Source: Escherichia coli O157:H7 (GTDB lineage Bacteria > Pseudomonadota > Gammaproteobacteria > Enterobacterales > Enterobacteriaceae). Taken from it: DNA of 64,000 nt. This document shows, one piece after another, positions 21,908-35,128 of this stretch. The stretch is from assembly GCF_013167455.1 (NCBI RefSeq), contig NZ_CP038328.1; one strand, given 5' to 3'. Position numbers and translations under genes: made by a program. How positions within the stretch are numbered: the stretch's first letter is position 1; the number at the start of each line of letters is the position of its first letter. The notes beneath the pieces were generated by a model that saw nothing but the letters and a program-made list of their open reading frames with translations, had not been told where the DNA came from and did no database searches.

Positions 21908-24639
21908 CGCATCTGGAACTGGTTCCCGTCCCGCCTGTCGCGCAACTGGCGGGCGTGAGCCAGCATTATGGAAAAACCGTTGCGCTGAACAATATCACAC
22001 TCGATATTCCGGCCCGCTGTATGGTCGGGCTGATTGGTCCGGATGGCGTCGGGAAGTCGAGTTTATTGTCATTGATTTCCGGTGCTCGTGTCATTGAGCA
22101 GGGCAATGTGATCGTGCTGGGCGGCGATATGCGCGACCCGAAGCATCGCCGCGACGTCTGCCCGCGCATCGCCTGGATGCCGCAGGGGCTGGGCAAAAAC
22201 CTCTACCACACCTTGTCGGTGTATGAAAACGTCGATTTTTTCGCTCGCCTGTTCGGTCACGACAAAGCGGAGCGGGAAGTGCGAATCAATGAGCTGCTGA
22301 CCAGCACCGGGTTAGCACCGTTTCGCGATCGTCCGGCAGGGAAACTCTCCGGCGGGATGAAGCAAAAACTGGGGCTGTGCTGTGCGTTAATCCACGACCC
22401 GGAACTGTTGATTCTTGATGAGCCTACGACGGGGGTTGACCCGCTCTCCCGCGCCCAGTTCTGGGATCTGATCGACAGTATTCGCCAGCGGCAGAGCAAT
22501 ATGAGCGTTCTGGTCGCCACGGCCTATATGGAAGAGGCGGAACGCTTCGACTGGTTGGTGGCGATGAATGCCGGAGAAGTGTTGGCAACTGGCAGCGCCG
22601 AAGAGCTGCGGCAGCAAACGCAAAGCGCCACGCTGGAAGAAGCATTTATAAATCTGTTACCGCAAGCGCAACGCCAGGCGCATCAGGCGGTAGTGATCCC
22701 ACCATATCAACCTGAAAACGCAGAGATTGCCATCGAAGCGCGCGATCTGACCATGCGTTTTGGTTCCTTCGTTGCCGTTGATCACGTCAATTTCCGCATT
22801 CCACGCGGGGAGATTTTTGGTTTTCTTGGTTCGAACGGCTGCGGTAAATCCACCACCATGAAAATGCTTACCGGATTGCTGCCCGCCAGCGAAGGTGAGG
22901 CGTGGCTGTTCGGGCAACCGGTTGATCCAAAAGATATCGATACTCGCCGTCGGGTGGGCTATATGTCGCAGGCGTTTTCGCTCTATAACGAGCTCACCGT
23001 GCGGCAAAACCTTGAGTTACATGCCCGTTTGTTTCACATCCCGGAAGCGGAAATTCCCGCAAGAGTGGCTGAAATGAGCGAGCGTTTTAAGCTCAACGAC
23101 GTTGAAGATGTTCTGCCGGAGTCATTGCCGCTCGGCATTCGCCAGCGGCTTTCGCTGGCGGTGGCGGTGATTCATCGCCCGGAAATGTTAATCCTCGATG
23201 AACCTACTTCTGGCGTCGATCCGGTGGCGAGGGATATGTTCTGGCAGTTGATGGTCGATCTCTCGCGCCAGGACAAAGTGACTATCTTCATCTCCACCCA
23301 CTTTATGAACGAAGCGGAACGCTGCGACCGTATCTCTCTGATGCACGCCGGAAAAGTGCTCGCCAGCGGTACACCGCAGGAACTGGTTGAGAAACGCGGA
23401 GCCGCCAGTCTGGAAGAGGCATTTATCGCCTATTTGCAGGAAGCGGCAGGACAGAGCAACGAAGCCGAAGCGCCTCCCGTGATACACGACACCACACACG
23501 CGCCGCGCCAGGGATTTAGCCTGCGCCGTCTGTTTAGCTACAGCCGCCGCGAAGCGCTGGAACTGCGACGCGATCCGGTACGTTCGACGCTGGCGCTGAT
23601 GGGAACAGTGATCCTGATGCTGATAATGGGTTACGGCATCAGTATGGATGTGGAAAACCTGCGCTTTGCGGTGCTTGACCGCGACCAGACCGTCAGTAGC
23701 CAGGCGTGGACGCTCAATCTCTCCGGTTCCCGTTACTTTATCGAACAGCCGCTGCTTACCAGTTATGACGAGCTTGATCGTCGGATGCGTGCGGGCGATA
23801 TCACGGTGGCAATTGAGATCCCGCCCAATTTCGGGCGCGATATCGCGCGTGGTACGCCTGTGGAACTCGGTGTCTGGATCGACGGTGCGATGCCGAGCCG
23901 CGCCGAAACTGTAAAAGGTTACGTGCAGGCCATGCACCAGAGCTGGCTACAGGATGTGGCGAGCCGACAATCCACACCCTCCAGCCAAAGCGGGCTGATG
24001 AATATTGAGACGCGTTATCGCTATAACCCGGACGTAAAAAGCCTGCCAGCGATTGTTCCGGCGGTGATCCCGCTTCTGCTGATGATGATCCCGTCAATGC
24101 TAAGCGCCCTTAGCGTGGTGCGGGAAAAAGAGCTAGGGTCGATTATCAACCTTTACGTGACCCCCACCACCCGTAGCGAATTTTTGCTTGGCAAACAGCT
24201 GCCGTACATCGCGCTGGGGATGCTGAACTTTTTCCTGCTCTGCGGCCTGTCGGTGTTTGTGTTTGGCGTACCGCATAAAGGCAGTTTCCTGACGCTCACC
24301 CTGGCGGCGCTGCTGTATATCATCATCGCCACCGGAATGGGGCTGCTGATCTCCACCTTTATGAAAAGCCAGATTGCCGCCATTTTCGGTACGGCGATTA
24401 TCACGTTGATCCCGGCGACACAGTTTTCCGGGATGATCGATCCGGTAGCTTCGCTGGAAGGGCCGGGACGTTGGATCGGCGAGGTTTACCCGACCAGTCA
24501 TTTTCTGACTATCGCCCGCGGGACGTTCTCGAAAGCGCTGGATCTGACTGATTTGTGGCAACTTTTTATCCCGTTGCTGATAGCCATACCGCTGGTGATG
24601 GGCTTAAGCATCCTGCTGCTGAAAAAACAGGAGGGATGA
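21904..24639 (+). CDS. rbbA: Ribosome-associated ATPase RbbA: tandem ABC ATPase domains fused to an ABC-2 permease domain
   Basis: 911 aa; two Walker A motifs ([18 protein letters not shown]), two LSGG signature motifs, C-terminal 6-TM permease. Confidence 0.9.
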
Positions 24640-25763
24640 TGCGCCATTTACGCAATATTTTTAATCTGGGTATCAAAGAGTTGCGCAGTCTACTCGGTGA
24701 TAAAGCGATGCTGACATTGATTGTCTTCTCGTTTACGGTGTCGGTGTATTCGTCAGCGACCGTCACGCCAGGATCGTTGAACCTGGCACCGATCGCCATT
24801 GCCGATATGGATCAATCGCAGTTATCGAACCGGATCGTTAACAGCTTCTATCGCCCGTGGTTTTTGCCACCGGAGATGATCACCGCCGATGAGATGGATG
24901 CCGGACTGGACGCCGGGCGTTATACCTTTGCGATAAATATTCCGCCTAATTTTCAGCGTGATGTCCTCGCCGGACGCCAGCCAGATATTCAGGTGAACGT
25001 CGATGCCACGCGCATGAGCCAGGCATTTACCGGCAATGGGTATATCCAGAATATTATCAACGGTGAAGTGAACAGCTTTGTCGCGCGCTACCGTGATAAC
25101 AGCGAACCGTTGGTATCGCTGGAAACCCGGATGCGCTTTAACCCGAACCTTGATCCCGCGTGGTTTGGCGGGGTGATGGCGATCATCAACAACATTACCA
25201 TGCTGGCGATTGTATTGACCGGATCGGCGCTGATCCGCGAGCGTGAACACGGCACGGTGGAACACTTACTGGTGATGCCGATAACGCCGTTTGAGATCAT
25301 GATGGCGAAGATCTGGTCGATGGGGTTGGTGGTGCTGGTGGTATCGGGATTATCACTGGTGCTGATGGTAAAAGGCGTGTTGGGCGTACCGATTGAAGGC
25401 TCGATCCCGCTGTTTATGCTGGGCGTGGCGCTTAGTCTGTTTGCCACCACGTCAATCGGCATTTTTATGGGGACAATAGCGCGTTCAATGCCGCAACTGG
25501 GGCTGCTGGTGATTCTGGTGCTGCTGCCGCTGCAAATGCTTTCCGGTGGTTCCACGCCGCGCGAAAGTATGCCGCAGATGGTGCAGGACATTATGCTGAT
25601 CATGCCGACGACACACTTTGTTAGCCTCGCGCAGGCCATTCTCTACCGTGGTGCCGGATTCGAAATCGTCTGGCCGCAGTTCCTGACGCTGATGGCAATT
25701 GGCGGCGCGTTTTTCACCATTGCGCTGCTGCGATTCAGGAAGACGATTGGGACAATGGCGTAA
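24636..25763 (+). CDS. yhhJ: ABC-2 family transporter permease
   Basis: ORF frame 24555..25763; start at ATG 24636 overlapping the rbbA stop (ATGA), giving 375 aa; polytopic membrane protein. Confidence 0.85.
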
Positions 25764-25775
25764 GGAAGGGAAACT

Positions 25776-25825
25776 TGACTTCATACTGTGATGTCATACT
25801 ATTGATGTCATAAAGTGAAGTCATA
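25776..25825 (+). promoter_or_regulatory. Putative promoter/operator of the hicAB-like operon: four spaced 10-bp repeats
   Basis: TGACTTCATA (25776), TGATGTCATA (25789), TGATGTCATA (25803), TGAAGTCATA (25816), spaced 13-14 bp. Outer copies are mutually palindromic in their core (TGACTTCA / TGAAGTCA). SD aaggac follows at 25824-25829. Confidence 0.5.
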
Positions 25826-25835
25826 AGGACATGCC

Positions 25836-26111
25836 ATGAGAACCAAGGTACAGGCTTTACGGAAGAAACAAAAAAATACATTGGATCAAATATTTAAAAC
25901 TCCTGTTCCTCAAGGGATCAAGTGGTCTGATATAGAGTCACTGGTTAAAGCATTAGGCGGAGAAATTAAGGAAGGAAGAGGTTCGCGTTGTAAGCTCATA
26001 CTAAATATGAGCGTTGCGTGTTTCCATCGGCCTCATCCGTCGCCAGATACCGATAAAGGCGCTGTAGAAAGCGTGCGTGACTGGTTACTAAGTATAGGGG
26101 TAAAACCATGA
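25836..26111 (+). CDS. HicA-like type II toxin (predicted mRNA interferase)
   Basis: 91 aa; C-terminal GRGSRCKLILNMSVACFHRPHPSPDTDKGAVESVRDWL resembles the HicA/YcfA KGSHH...HP core; 4-nt overlap with the downstream gene. Confidence 0.6.
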   Translation: MRTKVQALRKKQKNTLDQIFKTPVPQGIKWSDIESLVKALGGEIKEGRGSRCKLILNMSVACFHRPHPSPDTDKGAVESVRDWLLSIGVKP

Positions 26112-26467
26112 TCAAACTGAAGACGCCAAACTCTATGGAGATTGCCGGGCAACCTGCTGTTATCACTTACGTGCCAGAACTGAATGCATTTCGTGGCAAA
26201 TTCCTGGGCTTGTCAGGTTATTGTGATTTTGTCTCTGACAGCATTCAGGGGCTGCAAAAAGAAGGGGAACTTTCCCTGCGAGAGTATCTTGAGGATTGTA
26301 AAGCTGCGGGTATTGAGCCGTATGCGCGTACAGAAAAGATTAAGACCTTTACGTTACGCTATCCAGAATCGCTGAGTGAACGCCTTAATAATGCGGCTGC
26401 GCAGCAACAAGTCTCTGTTAATACCTATATTATTGAAACACTGAATGAGCGTTTGAATCATTTATAA
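26108..26467 (+). CDS. HicB-like antitoxin with C-terminal ribbon-helix-helix-like DNA-binding segment
   Basis: 119 aa; N-terminal HicB-like region (PAVITYVPELNAFRGKFLGLSGYCDF); C-terminal ESLSERLNNAAAQQQVSVNTYIIETLNERL typical of RHH/CopG. Confidence 0.6.
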   Translation: MIKLKTPNSMEIAGQPAVITYVPELNAFRGKFLGLSGYCDFVSDSIQGLQKEGELSLREYLEDCKAAGIEPYARTEKIKTFTLRYPESLSERLNNAAAQQQVSVNTYIIETLNERLNHL

Positions 26468-26469
26468 CT

Positions 26470-26506
26470 TATAGCGGCCCAACAATTTCTGTTGCGCCGC
26501 TATATT
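26470..26506 (+). terminator. Rho-independent terminator after hicB-like gene
   Basis: tatagcggc-ccaacaatttctgtt-gcgccgctata followed by tttttgtgg. Confidence 0.7.
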
Positions 26507-26516
26507 TTTGTGGCTC

Positions 26517-27377
26517 TTAAGATGCCTTTCTAACCAACCGATGCCCCTCATTCATCATCAGGATTTTGCTATACACATCTTCCTCGACGGCGTTTTTTGC
26601 TGATGCCATGACTCGTGCCAGATTCGCCTCGTTGTGATTATTCACATACGCTTTGCCGACGGCGGTGATAAACGCTTTGCGCAGATCGCTGGCGATATTT
26701 ACTTTAGCGACGCGATAATTAACAAAGCTGCGTAATATCTCCGGGGCGATACCGGAGCCGCCGTGAATAACCAACGGCACCGGACAGACTTCGGCAATGC
26801 GCTTCAGCAGGGGGATATCGATACGCGGTATATCGTCCAGGCCATGAACGTTGCCAATAGAAACTGCCAGCATGTCGCAACCGGTACGCTCGACAAAGGT
26901 CTTCACCTTTTCCGGTTCCGTTTTGCAATCGGCTTCGCTGACGTGATCATCTTCTTTGCCGAGAATCGCCCCCAGCTCCGCTTCAACCGGTACGCCATAG
27001 GATTTACAGAAATCGACAGCTTCCTGGGTGAAAGCGATATTCTCTTCAAAAGAGAATGCGGCACCGTCAATCATGACCGAGGTAAAGCCCGCGCGCACCG
27101 CCTGTTTAACATCCTCCTGGGTTTTCCCGTGATCCAGATGAAGACTGACCGGAACATCCATTTTATCGGCGTGACGTTTCACGATTTCATAAATGTAATC
27201 GTATCCCGAGAGTTGTGCATTGGTTGGCGCAATCTGAATGAAGTTGGGTAATCCCGAACGCTCAATAGCGTTTAAAATTGAAATTGTCGTCTCCAGATTG
27301 GTGGTATTAAATGCGCCCGCTAATACCCGTTTTTCCTGAATGCGGTCGAGCAGTATCCGTCCATTAACTAATGGCAT
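26517..27377 (-). CDS. Class II ketose-bisphosphate aldolase (GatY/KbaY/FbaA family)
   Basis: 286 aa; metal-ligand motifs LHLDHG and VIHGGSG typical of class II aldolases. Confidence 0.8.
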   Translation of the reverse strand: MPLVNGRILLDRIQEKRVLAGAFNTTNLETTISILNAIERSGLPNFIQIAPTNAQLSGYDYIYEIVKRHADKMDVPVSLHLDHGKTQEDVKQAVRAGFTSVMIDGAAFSFEENIAFTQEAVDFCKSYGVPVEAELGAILGKEDDHVSEADCKTEPEKVKTFVERTGCDMLAVSIGNVHGLDDIPRIDIPLLKRIAEVCPVPLVIHGGSGIAPEILRSFVNYRVAKVNIASDLRKAFITAVGKAYVNNHNEANLARVMASAKNAVEEDVYSKILMMNEGHRLVRKAS

Positions 27378-27408
27378 ATTGAAAACCTCATCTTTTAATA
27401 TCAGTTAA

Positions 27409-27678
27409 TTATTCAGCTTCACCGAAGCGGTCGCGAAATAAGTCGGTGAGAGTCTGTATGGCCTCGTTTTCATCATCACCGTCGCAGCGTATTTCCACCG
27501 TTTTTCCGCCTTTTATTCCGGCGCGCATAATATTCATCATGCTGGTGGCATTAATATCATTACCCTCATAGTGCAGCGTCACTTTACAGCTATATTTTTT
27601 GGCGGCTTTCGCCAGACAGGCCGCCGGACGTGCATGCAGGCCAGTACTGTTTCTGACCTCCACGGTTTTATTCAACAT
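27409..27678 (-). CDS. HPr-like PTS phosphocarrier protein
   Basis: 89 aa; active-site context GLHARPA near the N-terminus. Confidence 0.8.
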   Translation of the reverse strand: MLNKTVEVRNSTGLHARPAACLAKAAKKYSCKVTLHYEGNDINATSMMNIMRAGIKGGKTVEIRCDGDDENEAIQTLTDLFRDRFGEAE

Positions 27679-29176
27679 AGTGTTCCTCTCGATGATGTAA
27701 TGGCATCACGCCTTCTTGTTGTAATTTCAACTGATACCAGCTTTTCCATTTGTGCTGATAACGCTGTAATTGATGGTATCTCGCCCGATTCGGTAACAAA
27801 CGTTGGGCTATAGCGACTGGCGGCGGTGGAATATCCGGTGCGGCGGTTAATAATGCTCCGACAGAAACCGCCTCGTTAAATGCAATTGCTTCAACCGGAC
27901 GCTGTAAAATATCCGCCTTTAATTGCAGCCAAAGAGGATTATGGGTTGCCGGACCGATCACTTTTAACGCGCTGGTGCCAGGCACGTTAAAACAGGCGAA
28001 GCAGTTGGCAAATTCCATGGTTAATCCCAGTGATACGCTGGCAATTAACATGTCGATACTTAACGTATCGCCAAGCCCATAAAATAATCCACGGGTATGG
28101 CGATTTTTATAGGGCGAACCCGAACCGCGAAGATGTGGAATAAAGACGGGAATGTCATCGAGCAACCAATTCCCCGCCAGATAATCAGCATGTCCGCGAG
28201 TAAGTGATGCGGCGATCTCCTCATCGGTTAGCCGGAACGTGTTGCGCAGCCACTCCAGCGCGAAACCGCCCACGGGCAGCGACGCAAACAGGGTGAACTG
28301 GTTGGCAAGTGAGTAACAGCCGTTTGCCAGCTTGTCACGTTTGGCCTGTTCATCCAGCGTCGGTTGTGTATCCAGTTGCAGAATGCCTTCCGTGGTCCCC
28401 GTCGAGTTAAGGATATCGCCTGGCATCATCTGCAACGCTCGCGCACCCACCATATGGTCATGTCCGGCCAGCGTCACGCTGACCGGTTGCGAGAACCCAA
28501 GCGTCTTGCAAAGTGACTCGCTGACCCATCCGGCGTGCTCGCCTGGCTGCACCAATGGCGCAAATGCCGTACAGGGAACGTGTAACAACGCCGCCGCTTT
28601 CGCTGACCATTCGCCTTTGCGCACGTCCAGACACAGCGTGCGGCTGGCTAAGGTGATATCCGTGTGCTGTTCGCCAGTCAGCCGCCAGAGCAGCACTTCC
28701 GGCGCATGTAGCCAGCGCAGGCCGCGGCGATTACGCAGCGGGTAATGTTCCAGCAACCAGCGCATTTTGAAGGCAGAGTAATTGCTGTGTAGTGGTAGAC
28801 CGCAGATGTCATAAAGTGCCGCACTGTCTGCCTCGCTAAGCGTTGCCAGATACTCTTCACCGCGACGGTCATACCATGCCAGCATTGGCGTCAGGATCTC
28901 GCCATGCTCGTCAAGGAACACGCCTGATTCGCCAAAACTGGCAATGCTGATCCGTCTGACTGGCAGCGGCGAAGCGGCGTTCAGTTGCGCTATCGCCTGG
29001 CGGACCTCCTGCCAGAGGGCGTCGATATCGAAATCGACATCGCCCTGTGGGGAGATCTGCTTTGCCGTCACGAATTTATGCGCGCCCAACGTCGTTGCGT
29101 CCAGGCAGGAAAAGCAGGTGACTTTGCAATTGGTGGTGCCAATATCGATAACGATAGCTGCGCTGTTATCAGGCAT
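27668..29176 (-). CDS. FGGY-family carbohydrate kinase
   Basis: 502 aa; N-terminal AIVIDIGTTNCKV actin-like ATPase phosphate-1 motif; overall FGGY architecture. Confidence 0.7.
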   Translation of the reverse strand: MPDNSAAIVIDIGTTNCKVTCFSCLDATTLGAHKFVTAKQISPQGDVDFDIDALWQEVRQAIAQLNAASPLPVRRISIASFGESGVFLDEHGEILTPMLAWYDRRGEEYLATLSEADSAALYDICGLPLHSNYSAFKMRWLLEHYPLRNRRGLRWLHAPEVLLWRLTGEQHTDITLASRTLCLDVRKGEWSAKAAALLHVPCTAFAPLVQPGEHAGWVSESLCKTLGFSQPVSVTLAGHDHMVGARALQMMPGDILNSTGTTEGILQLDTQPTLDEQAKRDKLANGCYSLANQFTLFASLPVGGFALEWLRNTFRLTDEEIAASLTRGHADYLAGNWLLDDIPVFIPHLRGSGSPYKNRHTRGLFYGLGDTLSIDMLIASVSLGLTMEFANCFACFNVPGTSALKVIGPATHNPLWLQLKADILQRPVEAIAFNEAVSVGALLTAAPDIPPPPVAIAQRLLPNRARYHQLQRYQHKWKSWYQLKLQQEGVMPLHHREEHYVE

Positions 29177-30527
29177 AAACCGTGCTCCGCGTCATTCGGA
29201 AAATGCCATACAGTACCAGGGCGATAACCGGCACCAGACCAATGGCGATGAGATTGCCGTTGAAGATTTCCAGCAGCCAGAAGCGGAACGGGTTACCGCC
29301 ATCAAGAAAACTGGAAACCTGGCCGCTGGAGCCTTCGGCAAATTTGAAGTTAACGTCTTTCGCCATTCCGGTAATAAACGGCGCGATTTTGGTAGCAATC
29401 CATAGGTCGGCAATAATCACCGGGATCGCCGCCAGAACGGTGCGGAAAATATTGCCACGGCTGGCTAAAGCAATCATCGACGCCATTACCGCCAGGTTGG
29501 CAAGGTCGCCAAGCGGCAGGACTTCATTACCCGGAAGGACAAACGCGATAAAGACCGAGATTGGCGTTAGCAGCAGGGCGGTGGAGATAATCGCCGGATT
29601 ACCTACGGCAACGGCGATATCCAGGCCGATATAGAGATCGTCACGGTCAGGGTATTTGGCATTGAGATACTTTTTAATAGCTTCAGACAGCGGTAATAAA
29701 CCTTCCATCAGGATGCGTACCATGCGTGGCAGGATGAACATCACACCGCCAATGCTGATGCCAAGCAGCAATACTTTTTTGAAATCGTATCCGGCAATTA
29801 CGCCGAGCAGAATGCCCAGAATAGTGCCAACCATCATCGGTTCGCCGAAGATGCCAAACTTTTTCTGTACGGTTTCCGGGTCGATATGAATACGATTGAG
29901 GCCAGGGATATGGTCGATGATTTTGTCGACCAGCAGACCGACCGGGAAGAACACCACCGAAGAGAGCGTCGGCAATGAGATCCCTTCCAGTCCAAAGTAT
30001 TTTTGTACCAGTGGCGCAGACCAGTCGGCGAGTTTAAGTACTACCACCGCAGCAATCGCCGCCGCCAGCAAACCAAAGAACAGGCTGCCGGTGCTGTAAT
30101 AAACCAACGTACCAGCAAGGGCAAAATGCCAGTAGTTCCACATATCTACGTCAACGGTACGGGTTTTATTTAACGCCAGCATCGCCACGTTAATCAGAAT
30201 GGTCAGGGGAATAACAAACGGGGCAATTGGCGAACCCCATGTAATAGCGGAAAGCGGCGGCCAGCCTAAATCTACCACCGGTAAATTAATTCCGGTGCGT
30301 TCAACCATCGCCTGGGCCGCTGGCCCGACATTGCTGGTCAGAATATCGAAAATGGCATAAATACCGACAAAACCAATGCCGACTGTTAATGACGAACGTA
30401 AGGCTTTAGCGGGTTTTACTTTAAAACAGAGAGCAAGAATAAATAACACCAACGGCAACATTACCGTCGGGCCAAATCCCAATATATATTGCACAATATT
30501 ATAGAGGGTATGCGCGATATCGTTCAT
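29169..30527 (-). CDS. PTS EIIC permease, galactitol (GatC/SgcC) family
   Basis: ORF frame 29169..30557; start placed at internal Met 30527 (MNDIAHTLYNIVQYILGFGP...) preceded by AAGAGG; polytopic membrane protein. Confidence 0.8.
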   Translation of the reverse strand: MNDIAHTLYNIVQYILGFGPTVMLPLVLFILALCFKVKPAKALRSSLTVGIGFVGIYAIFDILTSNVGPAAQAMVERTGINLPVVDLGWPPLSAITWGSPIAPFVIPLTILINVAMLALNKTRTVDVDMWNYWHFALAGTLVYYSTGSLFFGLLAAAIAAVVVLKLADWSAPLVQKYFGLEGISLPTLSSVVFFPVGLLVDKIIDHIPGLNRIHIDPETVQKKFGIFGEPMMVGTILGILLGVIAGYDFKKVLLLGISIGGVMFILPRMVRILMEGLLPLSEAIKKYLNAKYPDRDDLYIGLDIAVAVGNPAIISTALLLTPISVFIAFVLPGNEVLPLGDLANLAVMASMIALASRGNIFRTVLAAIPVIIADLWIATKIAPFITGMAKDVNFKFAEGSSGQVSSFLDGGNPFRFWLLEIFNGNLIAIGLVPVIALVLYGIFRMTRSTVYA

Positions 30528-30603
30528 AATAAACCTCTTTTTCAGGCGAGAGCGCACCTCGCGTTAGCGCCTGATGGAGTGGGTTGAAATTAATTATTAT
30601 TAA

Positions 30604-30885
30604 TTACTTTTTAAGGATAGAAACAATTTGCGCCAGTACTTTTTCTTCGCCAATACCGGTAATAATCGGCAAGCCGTTCACCACCGGGACGTCGAGTTCA
30701 TAAGGCACTTTAGTTGTTGAAACTACCAGTGCTACGCCGTCAGTATTTCCAGGTAAAGAGGCAACGTTGGTTTGGGAATAATTGACGTTAAGACCTTGCT
30801 CTTTGCAATATTCCATGACTTTTTCTGTTACCGCCGTGGATGTGGCAATACCCGTGGCGCAGACAAATAAAATGGTTTGACTCAT
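30604..30885 (-). CDS. PTS EIIB component, galactitol-type
   Basis: 93 aa; MSQTILFVCATGIATST with the phospho-acceptor Cys. Confidence 0.8.
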   Translation of the reverse strand: MSQTILFVCATGIATSTAVTEKVMEYCKEQGLNVNYSQTNVASLPGNTDGVALVVSTTKVPYELDVPVVNGLPIITGIGEEKVLAQIVSILKK

Positions 30886-31355
30886 ATTTCACCTCGTTCT
30901 TTCATTTTGTTTAAGATTACTGTGTGTATTTCTGTTGTTTCCATCGCAAGCAGGGCTTGCATAAAGGGCGTATCCTGAATCATTTCCATAATCCAGCCCA
31001 GGGCATTTAATTGTTTATTGCTTTCGCTTAAGGCGAGCAAAAAAATCACCCTGACAGGTACGGGGTCAGGATCGCCGCCCATATCGGCAAACTCTACCGG
31101 TTCCGGCAGGATGCCGACGGCAATTGCATTGTGCCTGACATGTTTATGGTCCGTGTGCGGAATAGCGACGCACGGTGGTTCGGTAGGCAGCCCCGTTGGG
31201 TACGTCGCCTCACGTTTCAGTACGTGATCGGCAAAATCAGGGACGACCAGCTCGGCGGCAACCAACGGTTGCGCTAACTGGCGGATGATCTGTTCAACGC
31301 TTAACCCTGCCGGAAGTCGTTGAATATAATTTTCCTGAAAATGTATGCCTTGCAT
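30882..31355 (-). CDS. PTS EIIA component (fructose/mannitol-type EIIA-2 fold)
   Basis: 157 aa; conserved His-containing CVAIPHTDHKHV region; 4-nt overlap with EIIB. Confidence 0.75.
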   Translation of the reverse strand: MQGIHFQENYIQRLPAGLSVEQIIRQLAQPLVAAELVVPDFADHVLKREATYPTGLPTEPPCVAIPHTDHKHVRHNAIAVGILPEPVEFADMGGDPDPVPVRVIFLLALSESNKQLNALGWIMEMIQDTPFMQALLAMETTEIHTVILNKMKERGEI

Positions 31356-31379
31356 TTTATTCCTCTTAAAAAAGTGTAC

Positions 31380-32135
31380 TTAACTCACTTCCCGCCGTTG
31401 CAGTACGGTGCCAAGATAATATTTATTTCCTTTTAACCAGACGTTGCCAAACTCAATGGGTAATCCTCGGGAGAAAAAGACTAACTGCTCCAGATGCAAA
31501 ACGGGTGCGTCTTCACTGATATCTAAAAAATGACCACGTTCATTACCAATTAATCGCGCGGCATAGCGACTTTCCGAGTAACGAATTTTTCTTTGCGACA
31601 AACTTTCTATTGTTGGAAATAAATTGTGTTGATTAAAATCGATTTCAGCAATACCGGGGCATAGCTCAATATTGATACGGTTCTCTATCAGCATCGCTTT
31701 TTCATCACCAATTGAGCGTAAGCGTTCAAGGTAAAGAATATCCTGACCGGGCGTTATTCTTAATTTCTCTGCCACATAACGATTAGCCGATTCAATCCGT
31801 GACGTAATAACTTCAGTGGTAAAATGTATTTTCTGGCTTTCCAGCGATTCCGCGAATGACAATAATCCTTCACCTAACGGATATGCCACGTTCTCTTTTT
31901 TGACAAATGTTCCCTTACCCTGGACCTGTATTAACACGCCTTCTTTTACCAGTTGGGCGACCGCTTTTTTAACGGTTCCCCGACTCACGTCCAGCATATC
32001 CATAATCTGGTATTCCGAAGGAATGCGATCGTCTTCCACCAGATCTCCGGTATAAATACTTTCTCTTATCCACTCCACCACTTGTTGATAGAGCGGTATT
32101 TGTGACGACTTACTTAATGATTTCATGGCGCGCAC
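31380..32135 (-). CDS. GntR-family transcriptional regulator (HTH plus UTRA effector domain)
   Basis: 251 aa; N-terminal winged HTH (IPSEYQIMDMLDVSRGTVKKAV), C-terminal UTRA-like domain; first gene of the PTS operon. Confidence 0.8.
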   Translation of the reverse strand: MRAMKSLSKSSQIPLYQQVVEWIRESIYTGDLVEDDRIPSEYQIMDMLDVSRGTVKKAVAQLVKEGVLIQVQGKGTFVKKENVAYPLGEGLLSFAESLESQKIHFTTEVITSRIESANRYVAEKLRITPGQDILYLERLRSIGDEKAMLIENRINIELCPGIAEIDFNQHNLFPTIESLSQRKIRYSESRYAARLIGNERGHFLDISEDAPVLHLEQLVFFSRGLPIEFGNVWLKGNKYYLGTVLQRREVS

Positions 32136-32324
32136 CTGAACATTTACAGTTGTCTATGGACAATCATGGACAACTTCAAGCGTATAGTAGGTGAACGGGA
32201 GAAAAAGAGGATCGAAGCGTCTCACATTTTGAGGGACCAAATCGTGATCAAAAAAATGTGACGTGAGTCGATATTTGTCAGAAGTTTACTGCGCCGTAAG
32301 GAAATAACGGCGCGTTGGTAGGTG

Positions 32325-35128
<2,804 letters not shown>

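What the first reader, a model, noticed from the sequence alone, without database searches (positions are those of the whole stretch)
25764..32324. Strain-variable insertion between yhhJ and nikR
About 6.5 kb separates yhhJ from nikR and is filled by a toxin-antitoxin pair and a PTS operon. From memory, K-12 carries rhsB plus H-repeat remnants at this junction, so this is an alternative cargo at a known variable hot spot. No integrase, transposase or direct repeats mark the borders.
Basis: partly seen in the sequence, partly recalled or inferred. Interest (0 to 1): 0.4.

Follow-up and report, generated by a model that had tools for sequence, protein, structure and literature searches.

The report
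Old sugar operon at variable junction
The 6.5 kb between yhhJ and nikR in this E. coli O157:H7 window is a real strain-variable stretch, but its sugar-uptake operon is the old resident of the site and K-12's rhsB element is the newcomer, so this is ordinary, already annotated genome variation.

Summary
Window 25764-32324 is exactly the gap between the stop codons of the convergent genes yhhJ and nikR. It holds a hicA-hicB pair (+ strand) and a 7-gene minus-strand operon: GntR/UTRA regulator, EIIA, EIIB, Gat-family EIIC, FGGY kinase, HPr-like protein and class II aldolase. There is no integrase, transposase, tRNA, rhs remnant or flanking repeat.

K-12 has rhsB-yhhH-yrhC-yhhI here instead. In 5426 complete E. 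coli genomes four layouts cover 96.6%:
- hicAB+PTS: 580
- PTS only: 1056
- hicAB only: 1491
- nikR-rhsB: 2114

The word "insertion" has the direction wrong. The same nikR-PTS-yhhJ order occurs in E. albertii, E. whittamii, two other Escherichia species and Citrobacter amalonaticus. The operon's synonymous divergence matches that of its flanks. K-12 keeps a truncated copy of the PTS-only spacer. So the operon is ancestral and rhsB replaced it, as Jackson et al. 2009 implied.

hicAB and the operon segregate independently. The operon is intact, under purifying selection, and four of its genes are induced in bovine gut contents (EDL933 Z4875-77, Z4879). Its substrate is unknown. My best inference is a ketose taken up by the PTS, phosphorylated a second time and split by the aldolase.

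Ordinary and known; low interest.

The parts
24639..25763 (+). yhhJ (ABC-2 permease), the conserved left flank. Homology between all layouts ends at its stop codon.
   Evidence: RefSeq annotation of the identical O157:H7 record; breakpoints from blastn.
25764..25835 (+). hicA upstream spacer. It holds a sigma-70-like promoter (TTGACT 25775-25780, 16 nt, TACTAT) and three 9-mers: GATGTCATA at 25790 and 25804, and GAAGTCATA at 25817. These are a candidate HicB operator.
   Evidence: The spacer is shared with hicAB-only genomes. In strain BS-04 it is cut after 59 nt by an ISAs1 copy. The operator role is inferred.
25836..26111 (+). hicA, a HicA-family toxin (91 aa) of a subfamily that has GSR where canonical HicA has GSH.
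   Evidence: Pfam PF07927 E 6.8e-9; subfamily alignment A1.
26108..26467 (+). hicB, a HicB-family antitoxin (119 aa). It overlaps hicA by 4 nt and has a ribbon-helix-helix-like C-terminus.
   Evidence: Pfam PF05534 E 2.1e-15; weak match to the Arc repressor.
26470..26504 (.). Hairpin with 15-nt arms (93% complementary) and a 5-nt loop, lying between the convergent hicB and aldolase genes. Probably a two-way terminator. The hicAB-only layout loses homology inside its first arm, at 26478.
   Evidence: Inverted repeat I10; breakpoint.
26517..27377 (-). Class II (zinc) ketose-bisphosphate aldolase, 286 aa. The HLDH, GNVHG and IHGGSG motifs are present.
   Evidence: PF01116 E 3e-81; NCBIfam NF005943 557 bits against a cutoff of 364. 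The closest solved relative is AgaY tagatose-bisphosphate aldolase 1gvf, E 2e-48. Motifs. The ancestral ...RKAS C-terminus is shown.
27409..27678 (-). HPr-like phosphocarrier protein (89 aa) with His15 and Ser46 present.
   Evidence: PF00381 E 3e-29; motifs. This is EDL933 Z4879, induced in bovine digestive contents (PMC6199705).
27668..29176 (-). FGGY-family sugar kinase (502 aa) of unknown specificity, with a GHDH motif at residue 238.
   Evidence: PF00370 and PF02782. It falls below every NCBIfam equivalog cutoff; the best are XylB, GlpK and FucK. PDB relatives are no closer than E 9e-24.
29169..30527 (-). PTS EIIC of the galactitol (Gat) family, 452 aa.
   Evidence: PF03611 E 1e-91. TIGR00827 scores 476 bits, below its cutoff of 542. 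Start codon as in RefSeq. This is EDL933 Z4877.
30604..30885 (-). PTS EIIB (93 aa) with Cys9 in FVCATG.
   Evidence: PF02302; motif. This is EDL933 Z4876.
30882..31355 (-). PTS EIIA (157 aa) with an AIPH histidine motif.
   Evidence: PF00359 E 4e-34; motif. This is EDL933 Z4875.
31380..32126 (-). GntR/HutC-type regulator (winged helix-turn-helix plus UTRA effector domain), 248 aa. It is the first gene of the operon.
   Evidence: PF00392 and PF07702; RefSeq start codon. Its assignment to EDL933 Z4874 is inferred from the neighbouring tag numbers.
32127..32324 (-). Operon control region plus the nikR terminator. It holds a palindrome AGTTGTC-N14-GACAACT at 32148-32175 (candidate GntR operator), a 20-nt inverted repeat at 32211-32230/32253-32272, and the nikR hairpin at 32291-32313.
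   Evidence: The region is conserved in E. coli B2, E. whittamii and, in large part, C. amalonaticus. The functions are inferred.
32325..32726 (-). nikR, the conserved right flank. Homology with the K-12, hicAB-only and ISAs1 layouts resumes at 32327.

Best explanation
The yhhJ-nikR intergenic space is a recombination-exchanged, multi-allelic junction in E. coli.

The O157:H7 allele holds two independent modules.

(1) An ancient, vertically inherited 7-gene catabolic cassette. This part is shown. The cassette is intact, under purifying selection and transcribed in gut contents.

Its inferred workings are as follows:
- A GntR/HutC repressor controls the operon from the palindrome upstream of its own gene.
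- Phosphate passes from enzyme I to the cassette's own HPr, then to EIIA, EIIB and the Gat-family EIIC.
- The EIIC imports and phosphorylates an unidentified ketose-like sugar.
- The FGGY kinase adds a second phosphate.
- The class II aldolase splits the ketose bisphosphate into triose phosphates.

(2) A hicAB-type toxin-antitoxin pair lying between the operon and yhhJ.

The operon was at this site before Escherichia diversified. Later it was replaced by an rhsB/H-repeat element (K-12 type) or lost, leaving only hicAB. The layouts then spread by homologous recombination in the conserved flanks. This is why the borders show no mobile-element marks and all breakpoints fall at the two stop codons or inside spacer hairpins or REP elements.
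For: Gene content and motifs.

Census in 5426 complete genomes:
- hicAB+PTS: 580
- PTS only: 1056
- hicAB only: 1491
- nikR-rhsB: 2114
- All matches are chromosomal and single-copy. None lie on true plasmids.

Synteny: the order nikR-GntR-IIA-IIB-IIC-kinase-HPr-aldolase-yhhJ is found in E. whittamii, Escherichia sp. MOD1-EC7003, Escherichia sp. E1V33 (with hicAB), C. amalonaticus and E. albertii.

Synonymous divergence (dS) of operon genes against flanks:
- O157 vs B2: 0.09-0.17 against 0.11-0.24
- O157 vs E. whittamii: 0.15-0.26 against 0.19-0.27
- O157 vs C. amalonaticus: about 1 or saturated for both
- dN/dS is about 0.01-0.25.

Other sequence evidence:
- The nikR-side spacer is conserved as far as Citrobacter.
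- K-12 keeps the PTS-only spacer up to the middle of its REP element.
- The O157-type aldolase C-terminus (...RKAS) matches those of distant genera. The PTS-only type is clipped by 3 codons.

Literature:
- Jackson et al. 2009 state that the rhs locus between nikR and yhhJ 'evolved uniquely in the K12/HS/ATCC8739 lineage' (PMC2935791).
- Z4875, Z4876, Z4877 and Z4879 are up-regulated in bovine rumen, small-intestine and rectum contents relative to M9-glucose (PMC6199705).

The cassette travels as the same seven genes, with unrelated neighbours, in Rahnella, Cedecea, Pantoea, Enterobacter and others. The pathway is therefore self-contained.
Against: - The substrate and the order of the enzymatic steps are not shown. 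No dehydrogenase or isomerase is present. The kinase is only distantly related to characterised FGGY kinases. An alternative order would fit the genes equally well: the aldolase cleaves a ketose-1-phosphate and the kinase then phosphorylates the released triose.
- The outgroup distribution is patchy. No close homologue turned up in E. fergusonii, Salmonella or other Citrobacter species. This scan finds only close relatives, so absence is weak evidence. An old transfer of the whole nik-PTS-yhhJ block between the Escherichia and C. amalonaticus lineages cannot be excluded.
- Both the hicAB+PTS and PTS-only forms occur in more than one Escherichia species, so the order of those two events is unresolved.
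- Census percentages reflect the sampling bias of the database (many O157:H7 and ExPEC genomes).
- HicA toxicity is untested. The canonical catalytic histidine is replaced by arginine.
Confidence: 0.8

Rival explanations
1. The 6.5 kb is a horizontally acquired island, inserted as one block (TA pair plus PTS operon) into the O157:H7 lineage at a hot spot where K-12 carries rhsB.
For: The segment is absent from K-12 and from about 70% of complete genomes. Its GC content is uneven, 0.42-0.54 per gene against 0.54-0.56 for the flanks. The cassette occurs in unrelated contexts in other genera.
Against: The same synteny is found in five other species including E. albertii and C. amalonaticus. The operon's dS equals that of the flanks at all depths. 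The junction spacers are conserved. The two modules segregate separately. K-12 carries a scar of the PTS-only spacer. There is no integrase, tRNA or border repeat.
Confidence: 0.07
2. The same cassette was inserted repeatedly and independently into this hot spot in different Escherichia lineages by site-preferring recombination, rather than inherited from one ancestor.
For: The junction has at least four layouts plus about 185 genomes that fit none of them. The cassette is clearly mobile on long time scales across Enterobacterales.
Against: The nikR-side junction, including the nikR terminator and the operon control region, is co-linear and conserved from E. coli to C. amalonaticus. Divergence tracks the flanks gene by gene. 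The operon is not found on any real plasmid.
Confidence: 0.08
3. The operon is a decaying relic with no current function in O157:H7.
For: The substrate is unknown. The regulator gene is split or uncalled in some E. albertii strains. The operon has been lost from most E. coli.
Against: All seven ORFs are full length and match their orthologues in length. dN/dS is far below 1. The phosphorylation and metal-binding motifs are intact. Four of the genes are induced in bovine digestive contents (PMC6199705).
Confidence: 0.05

Closest known systems
E. coli K-12 rhsB / H-repeat (yhhI, ISAs1-family) element between nikR and yhhJ (rhs locus 9 of Jackson et al. 2009)
   Same: It occupies exactly the same intergenic slot. 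Both breakpoints are at the nikR and yhhJ stop codons.
   Different: The content is unrelated (Rhs toxin system plus a transposase). There is no sequence similarity to the O157 segment. It is the derived state and keeps about 87 nt of the PTS-only spacer.
gatYZABCDR galactitol operon of E. coli
   Same: Gat-family EIIA, EIIB and EIIC plus a class II aldolase of the tagatose/fructose-bisphosphate family.
   Different: All three EII proteins score below the GatA, GatB and GatC cutoffs. There is no GatD dehydrogenase and no GatZ. It has an FGGY kinase, its own HPr and a GntR/HutC regulator. That the gat operon uses the DeoR-type regulator GatR is from established knowledge. Galactitol is therefore unlikely to be the substrate.
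fruBKA fructose PTS pathway (established knowledge)
   Same: The same logic: a dedicated HPr-like carrier, PTS uptake giving a ketose monophosphate, a second phosphorylation, then aldolase cleavage.
   Different: The protein families differ: Fru-family EII, PfkB-type 1-phosphofructokinase, and the housekeeping aldolase. This is an analogy of mechanism, not membership.
E. coli K-12 HicA/HicB (b4532/b1438)
   Same: The same Pfam toxin family (PF07927), the toxin-first gene order and the close coupling of the two genes.
   Different: There is no pairwise BLAST similarity for either protein. This HicA has an 84-aa core with an N-terminal extension and GSR in place of GSH. This HicB is 119 aa with a PF05534/ribbon-helix-helix C-terminus. 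That K-12 HicB (138 aa) has a different, helix-turn-helix-type architecture is from memory.
O157-specific segments ('O-islands') of the EDL933/K-12 comparison (Perna et al. 2001; from memory, island number not verified)
   Same: Genes Z4874-Z4880 plus the TA pair are present in EDL933 and absent from K-12. They are annotated in all RefSeq records.
   Different: Unlike prophage-type or integrase-type O-islands, this one is ancestral DNA that K-12 lost.

Membership tests
Type II toxin-antitoxin system, HicAB | Toxin with a HicA domain (PF07927) | tested here: met
   E 6.8e-9, 36.1 bits against the gathering score of 27.
Type II toxin-antitoxin system, HicAB | An adjacent, co-oriented HicB antitoxin downstream of the toxin, with a DNA-binding domain | tested here: met
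   PF05534 E 2.1e-15. The genes overlap by 4 nt. There is a weak Arc-like ribbon-helix-helix match.
Type II toxin-antitoxin system, HicAB | The catalytic histidine of the G-S-H motif | tested here: not met
   G49-S50-R51. The arginine is at least 90% conserved across 43 diverse subfamily members. Its equivalence to GSH rests on the Pfam match register (residues 30-80 to profile positions 1-52) and is an inference.
Type II toxin-antitoxin system, HicAB | Toxicity (mRNA cleavage) neutralised by the antitoxin | not testable with these tools
   Needs expression and rescue experiments.
PTS galactitol (Gat) family transporter, TC 4.A.5 | An EIIC-GAT permease with separate EIIB (Cys) and EIIA (His) proteins | tested here: met
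   PF03611 E 1e-91, PF02302 and PF00359. Cys9 and the AIPH motif are present.
Galactitol-specific operon (gatABC equivalogs plus GatD) | Scores above the GatA, GatB and GatC equivalog cutoffs, and a galactitol-1-phosphate dehydrogenase | tested here: not met
   476 against 542, 58 against 95, and 57 against 139 bits. There is no dehydrogenase ORF in the operon or in any of 13 orthologous cassettes.
Class II ketose-bisphosphate aldolase | The PF01116 fold with zinc-binding histidines | tested here: met
   E 3e-81; NF005943 scores 557 against 364. The HLDH, GNVHG and IHGGSG motifs are present. Substrate specificity was not tested.
Integrative genomic island / mobile element | An integrase or transposase, a tRNA or att target, and flanking direct repeats | tested here: not met
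   None found.
Integrative genomic island / mobile element | Younger than its flanks and absent from the outgroups at this site | tested here: not met
   dS equals that of the flanks. The site is syntenic in E. albertii, E. whittamii and C. amalonaticus.
Rhs element remnant | Similarity to the rhs core, tip or H-repeat sequence at the borders | tested here: not met
   The O157 spacers show no similarity to the K-12 or BS-04 rhs flanks.
GntR/HutC-subfamily repressor | An N-terminal GntR winged helix-turn-helix plus a C-terminal UTRA domain | tested here: met
   PF00392 E 6e-16 and PF07702 E 3e-27. Operator binding was not tested.

The most novel reading that the evidence does not exclude
The seven-gene cassette (Z4874-Z4880) encodes a route for a gut-available ketose, or related sugar, that is not yet on the list of known E. 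coli carbon sources. It would use a combination I found described nowhere in the searched library: a Gat-family PTS, a private HPr, a FucK/RhaB-like FGGY kinase and a GatZ-independent class II aldolase. Its retention in groups such as O157:H7 and B2-type ExPEC strains, and its loss from K-12-like strains, would contribute to niche differences. Separately, the GSR-type HicA subfamily may use a catalytic arrangement different from canonical HicA.
Probability: 0.3. Interest if true: 0.45.

Novelty: already known. Interest (0 to 1): 0.2.

Why it matters
It matters only modestly. It is a clean example showing that "present in the pathogen, absent from K-12" does not mean "acquired by the pathogen". 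Here the laboratory strain lost an ancestral sugar operon to an Rhs element. The practical open point is the unknown substrate of a conserved operon that is induced in the gut and carried by about 30% of complete E. coli genomes, including O157:H7 and the species type strain ATCC 11775. Identifying it would add one nutrient to models of gut colonisation.

Tried and rejected
- I looked for rhs remnants or att-like repeats in the two border spacers and found none.
- I looked for tRNA genes and Rfam RNAs and found none.
- I searched plasmids for the operon. The only full-length matches are two 4.9-Mb chromosomes filed as plasmids.
- I tested whether the cassette's HPr might activate the FGGY kinase, as HPr does for Enterococcus GlpK. 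The position of GlpK His232 aligns with a lysine, so I rejected the idea.
- I looked by eye for a CRP site in 32127-32324 and saw no convincing TGTGA-N6-TCACA match. No scan was run.
- I asked whether the high IIC, IIB, aldolase and GntR identity (84-93%) to Rahnella or Cedecea means recent transfer. I rejected this, because dS is saturated for all genes.
- Literature searches on Z-numbers, 'O-island', and FGGY/PTS terms gave no functional study of the operon and no verified O-island number.
- The hicAB-only spacer next to nikR resembles the rhs leader in strain BS-04 only weakly. This is inconclusive on whether hicAB-only genomes once carried an rhs element.
- A profile comparison of the HicA subfamily with K-12 HicA was uninformative.

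Full report
**1. What is in the sequence**

The window matches E. coli O157:H7 chromosomes at 100% identity over 25764-32324. yhhJ (+ strand) stops at 25763 and nikR (- strand) stops at 32325. The finding's coordinates are therefore exactly the space between two convergent stop codons, 6561 bp.

On the + strand lie:
- hicA, 25836-26111 (PF07927, E 6.8e-9)
- hicB, 26108-26467 (PF05534, E 2e-15)

A hairpin with 15-nt arms at 26470-26504 separates these from a minus-strand operon. The operon runs, from first gene to last:
- GntR/UTRA regulator, 31380-32126
- EIIA, 30882-31355
- EIIB, 30604-30885
- Gat-family EIIC, 29169-30527
- FGGY kinase, 27668-29176
- HPr-like protein, 27409-27678
- class II aldolase, 26517-27377

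The phosphorylation and metal-binding motifs are intact: HPr His15, EIIB Cys9, EIIA AIPH, and aldolase HLDH, GNVHG and IHGGSG. There is no integrase or transposase ORF, no tRNA and no Rfam match. Repeats near the borders are only chance-level.

**2. How variable the junction is**

I searched 5426 complete E. coli genomes with queries that span each type of junction:

| Layout | Genomes |
|---|---|
| hicAB + PTS (O157 type) | 580 |
| PTS only, REP-containing spacer next to yhhJ | 1056 |
| hicAB only (809 bp between the two genes) | 1491 |
| nikR-rhsB | 2114 |

Of the 2114 nikR-rhsB genomes, 1828 also have the K-12 yhhI-yhhJ junction. Together the four layouts account for 5241 genomes (96.6%). 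All matches are chromosomal and single-copy. These percentages describe a biased database, not the species.

The two modules segregate independently. Among genomes with hicAB, the operon is present in 580 of 2071. Among genomes without hicAB (5426 minus 2071), it is present in 1056 of 3355. The TA pair is therefore not visibly "holding" the operon in place.

**3. The borders**

In every comparison, homology stops at the yhhJ stop codon or inside the spacer just after it, and resumes at 32327, the nikR stop codon.
- The hicAB-only layout loses homology at 26478, inside the first arm of the terminator hairpin.
- The PTS-only layout rejoins at 26531, which is 14 nt inside the 3' end of the aldolase gene.
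- Strain BS-04 keeps 59 nt of the hicA upstream spacer and then runs into an ISAs1 copy and an rhs element.
- The O157 spacers show no similarity to the rhs flanks.

**4. The direction of change**

One scan of one genome per prokaryotic species, using the kinase as query, found 18 loci. The order nikD-nikE-nikR-GntR-IIA-IIB-IIC-kinase-HPr-aldolase-yhhJ-rbbA occurs in:
- E. whittamii
- a MAG labelled Citrobacter sp. with E. coli-level identity
- Citrobacter amalonaticus, at 75-96% amino-acid identity, like its flanks
- E. albertii

Escherichia sp. MOD1-EC7003 shows the same order from nikD through the aldolase, with no yhhJ hit recorded in the locus. Escherichia sp. E1V33 has the O157 layout with hicAB, in a locus that starts at the kinase 3' end.

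Synonymous divergence of the operon genes equals that of the flanking core genes at each depth:

| Comparison | Operon genes | Flanking genes |
|---|---|---|
| O157 vs B2 | 0.09-0.17 | 0.11-0.24 |
| O157 vs E. whittamii | 0.15-0.26 | 0.19-0.27 |
| O157 vs C. amalonaticus | about 1 or saturated | about 1 or more |

The spacer between the regulator gene and nikR is co-linear and largely conserved out to C. amalonaticus. It includes the nikR terminator hairpin, a palindrome at 32148-32175 and an inverted repeat at 32211-32272.

K-12 retains the first ~87 nt of the PTS-only spacer and diverges in the middle of its REP element, where the H-repeat side begins. The K-12 layout therefore descends from a PTS-only layout in which the Rhs/H-repeat element replaced the operon.

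This agrees with Jackson et al. 2009. They list nikR/yhhJ as rhs locus 9 and state that it "evolved uniquely in the K12/HS/ATCC8739 lineage" (PMC2935791).

One further detail concerns the aldolase C-terminus. The O157-type ending (...GHRLVRKAS, 286 aa) matches those in C. amalonaticus, Rahnella, Cedecea and others. The PTS-only type ends ...GHRLGK (283 aa). So the O157-type 3' end is the older form, and the REP-bearing spacer clipped three codons. Both forms occur in more than one Escherichia species, so their relative order is unresolved.

**5. What the operon does**

Shown:
- All seven genes are intact, with dN/dS about 0.01-0.25.
- EDL933 Z4875, Z4876, Z4877 (EIIA, EIIB, EIIC) and Z4879 (HPr) are up-regulated in bovine rumen, small-intestine and rectum contents relative to M9-glucose (PMC6199705).
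- Z4874 is listed as RpoS-dependent (PMC2907692). I take it to be the regulator gene because its tag number is adjacent.
- In more distant genera (Rahnella, Cedecea, Pantoea, Enterobacter, Trabulsiella and others) the same seven genes travel together among unrelated neighbours, with no extra enzyme. The pathway is therefore self-contained.

Inferred: the sugar is taken up by the PTS, phosphorylated a second time by the kinase, and the ketose bisphosphate is cleaved by the aldolase into triose phosphates. This is the logic of the fructose and tagatose routes.
- The three EII proteins score below the GatA, GatB and GatC cutoffs and there is no GatD, so galactitol is unlikely.
- The aldolase's closest solved relative is AgaY tagatose-bisphosphate aldolase.
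- The kinase is remote from all characterised FGGY kinases.
- The kinase carries a GHDH motif. From memory this resembles the GHDT of fuculokinase and rhamnulokinase, which phosphorylate C1 of ketoses.
- An alternative order of steps cannot be excluded: aldolase acting on a ketose-1-phosphate, followed by a triose kinase.
- One source labels the regulator as belonging to an "unknown carbohydrate utilization cluster". I found no functional study.

**6. The toxin-antitoxin pair**

Membership of the HicA and HicB Pfam families is met. However, the proteins show no BLAST similarity to K-12 HicA or HicB and no sequence relative has a solved structure.

An exhaustive search found 1105 representatives of this subfamily at E-value up to 0.001. 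In an alignment of 43 of them, G49-S50-R51 and H64-x-P66-H67 are at least 90% conserved. The histidine of the canonical GSH motif is thus an arginine throughout the subfamily. The register is inferred from the Pfam match. Whether this protein is toxic, and how, is untested.

**7. Verdict**

This is a multi-allelic junction, but the PTS operon is the ancestral occupant and not an insertion, and the TA pair is a separate module.

The borders lack mobile-element marks. The likely reason, which is an inference, is that the layouts are exchanged by homologous recombination in the conserved flanks.

The segment is annotated in every RefSeq record. It is known as O157-specific relative to K-12, and its site is a published rhs locus. 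Novelty: already known. Interest: low (0.2). The only real open question is the substrate of the operon.

Noticed in passing
window 25836-26111 (hicA): This HicA belongs to a large subfamily (1105 representatives at E-value up to 0.001) with an 84-aa core. In it the canonical GSH catalytic motif reads GSR, and an H-R-P-H-P motif is conserved. It has no BLAST similarity to K-12 HicA, and no sequence relative has a solved structure.
   Followed up: partly
L025 4853-5821 and L027 5051-5798 (E. albertii): In two E. albertii assemblies the GntR regulator gene of the operon is either not called or is split in two, while the six structural genes are intact. Expression there may be constitutive.
   Followed up: no
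L010-L022 compared with window 26517-32126: Conservation across genera is uneven. EIIC, EIIB, aldolase and the regulator are mostly 84-93% identical (the aldolase drops to 72% in Enterobacter cancerogenus and Pantoea). EIIA, kinase and HPr are only 44-71% identical. Synonymous sites are saturated for all genes. Gene order also differs: kinase-HPr-aldolase in Escherichia and C. amalonaticus; kinase-aldolase-HPr in Rahnella, Cedecea and others; regulator-aldolase-EIIA... in Enterobacter cancerogenus and Pantoea.
   Followed up: partly
window 32127-32324: Two elements sit upstream of the regulator gene: a palindrome AGTTGTC-N14-GACAACT (32148-32175) and a 20-nt inverted repeat (32211-32230 / 32253-32272). 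Both are conserved in E. whittamii and largely in C. amalonaticus. They are likely operator or promoter elements, untested.
   Followed up: partly
L002 (NZ_CP026085.1, labelled 'DH5alpha'): This 4.83-Mb record has the hicAB-only junction, not the K-12 rhsB layout. At this locus it does not look like a K-12 derivative.
   Followed up: no
PLSDB records NZ_CP134663.1 and NZ_CP141089.1: The two 'plasmid' records that match the operon are 4.9-Mb sequences, that is, chromosomes filed as plasmids.
   Followed up: no
window 32325-34299 (nikR, nikE, nikD): Between O157 and a B2 strain, the nik genes have higher synonymous divergence (0.17-0.24) than yhhJ and the operon (0.09-0.17). The 3' end of nikR falls to about 91.5% identity among E. 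coli genomes (query L002:12500-13000). This may reflect recombination imports next to the junction.
   Followed up: no
L004 12018-13166 (strain BS-04): An ISAs1 copy sits 59 nt after the yhhJ stop, 13 nt before where hicA would start. It replaces hicAB and adjoins an rhs element about 82% identical to K-12 rhsB. This is a fifth, rare layout.
   Followed up: partly
window 25804-25817 and 28805-28818: The 14-mer GATGTCATAAAGTG from the hicA upstream repeats recurs exactly inside the kinase gene. This is probably chance.
   Followed up: no
window 20000-20750: There is a stretch of low GC (0.38-0.44) upstream of the yhiI-rbbA-yhhJ genes. I did not examine it.
   Followed up: no
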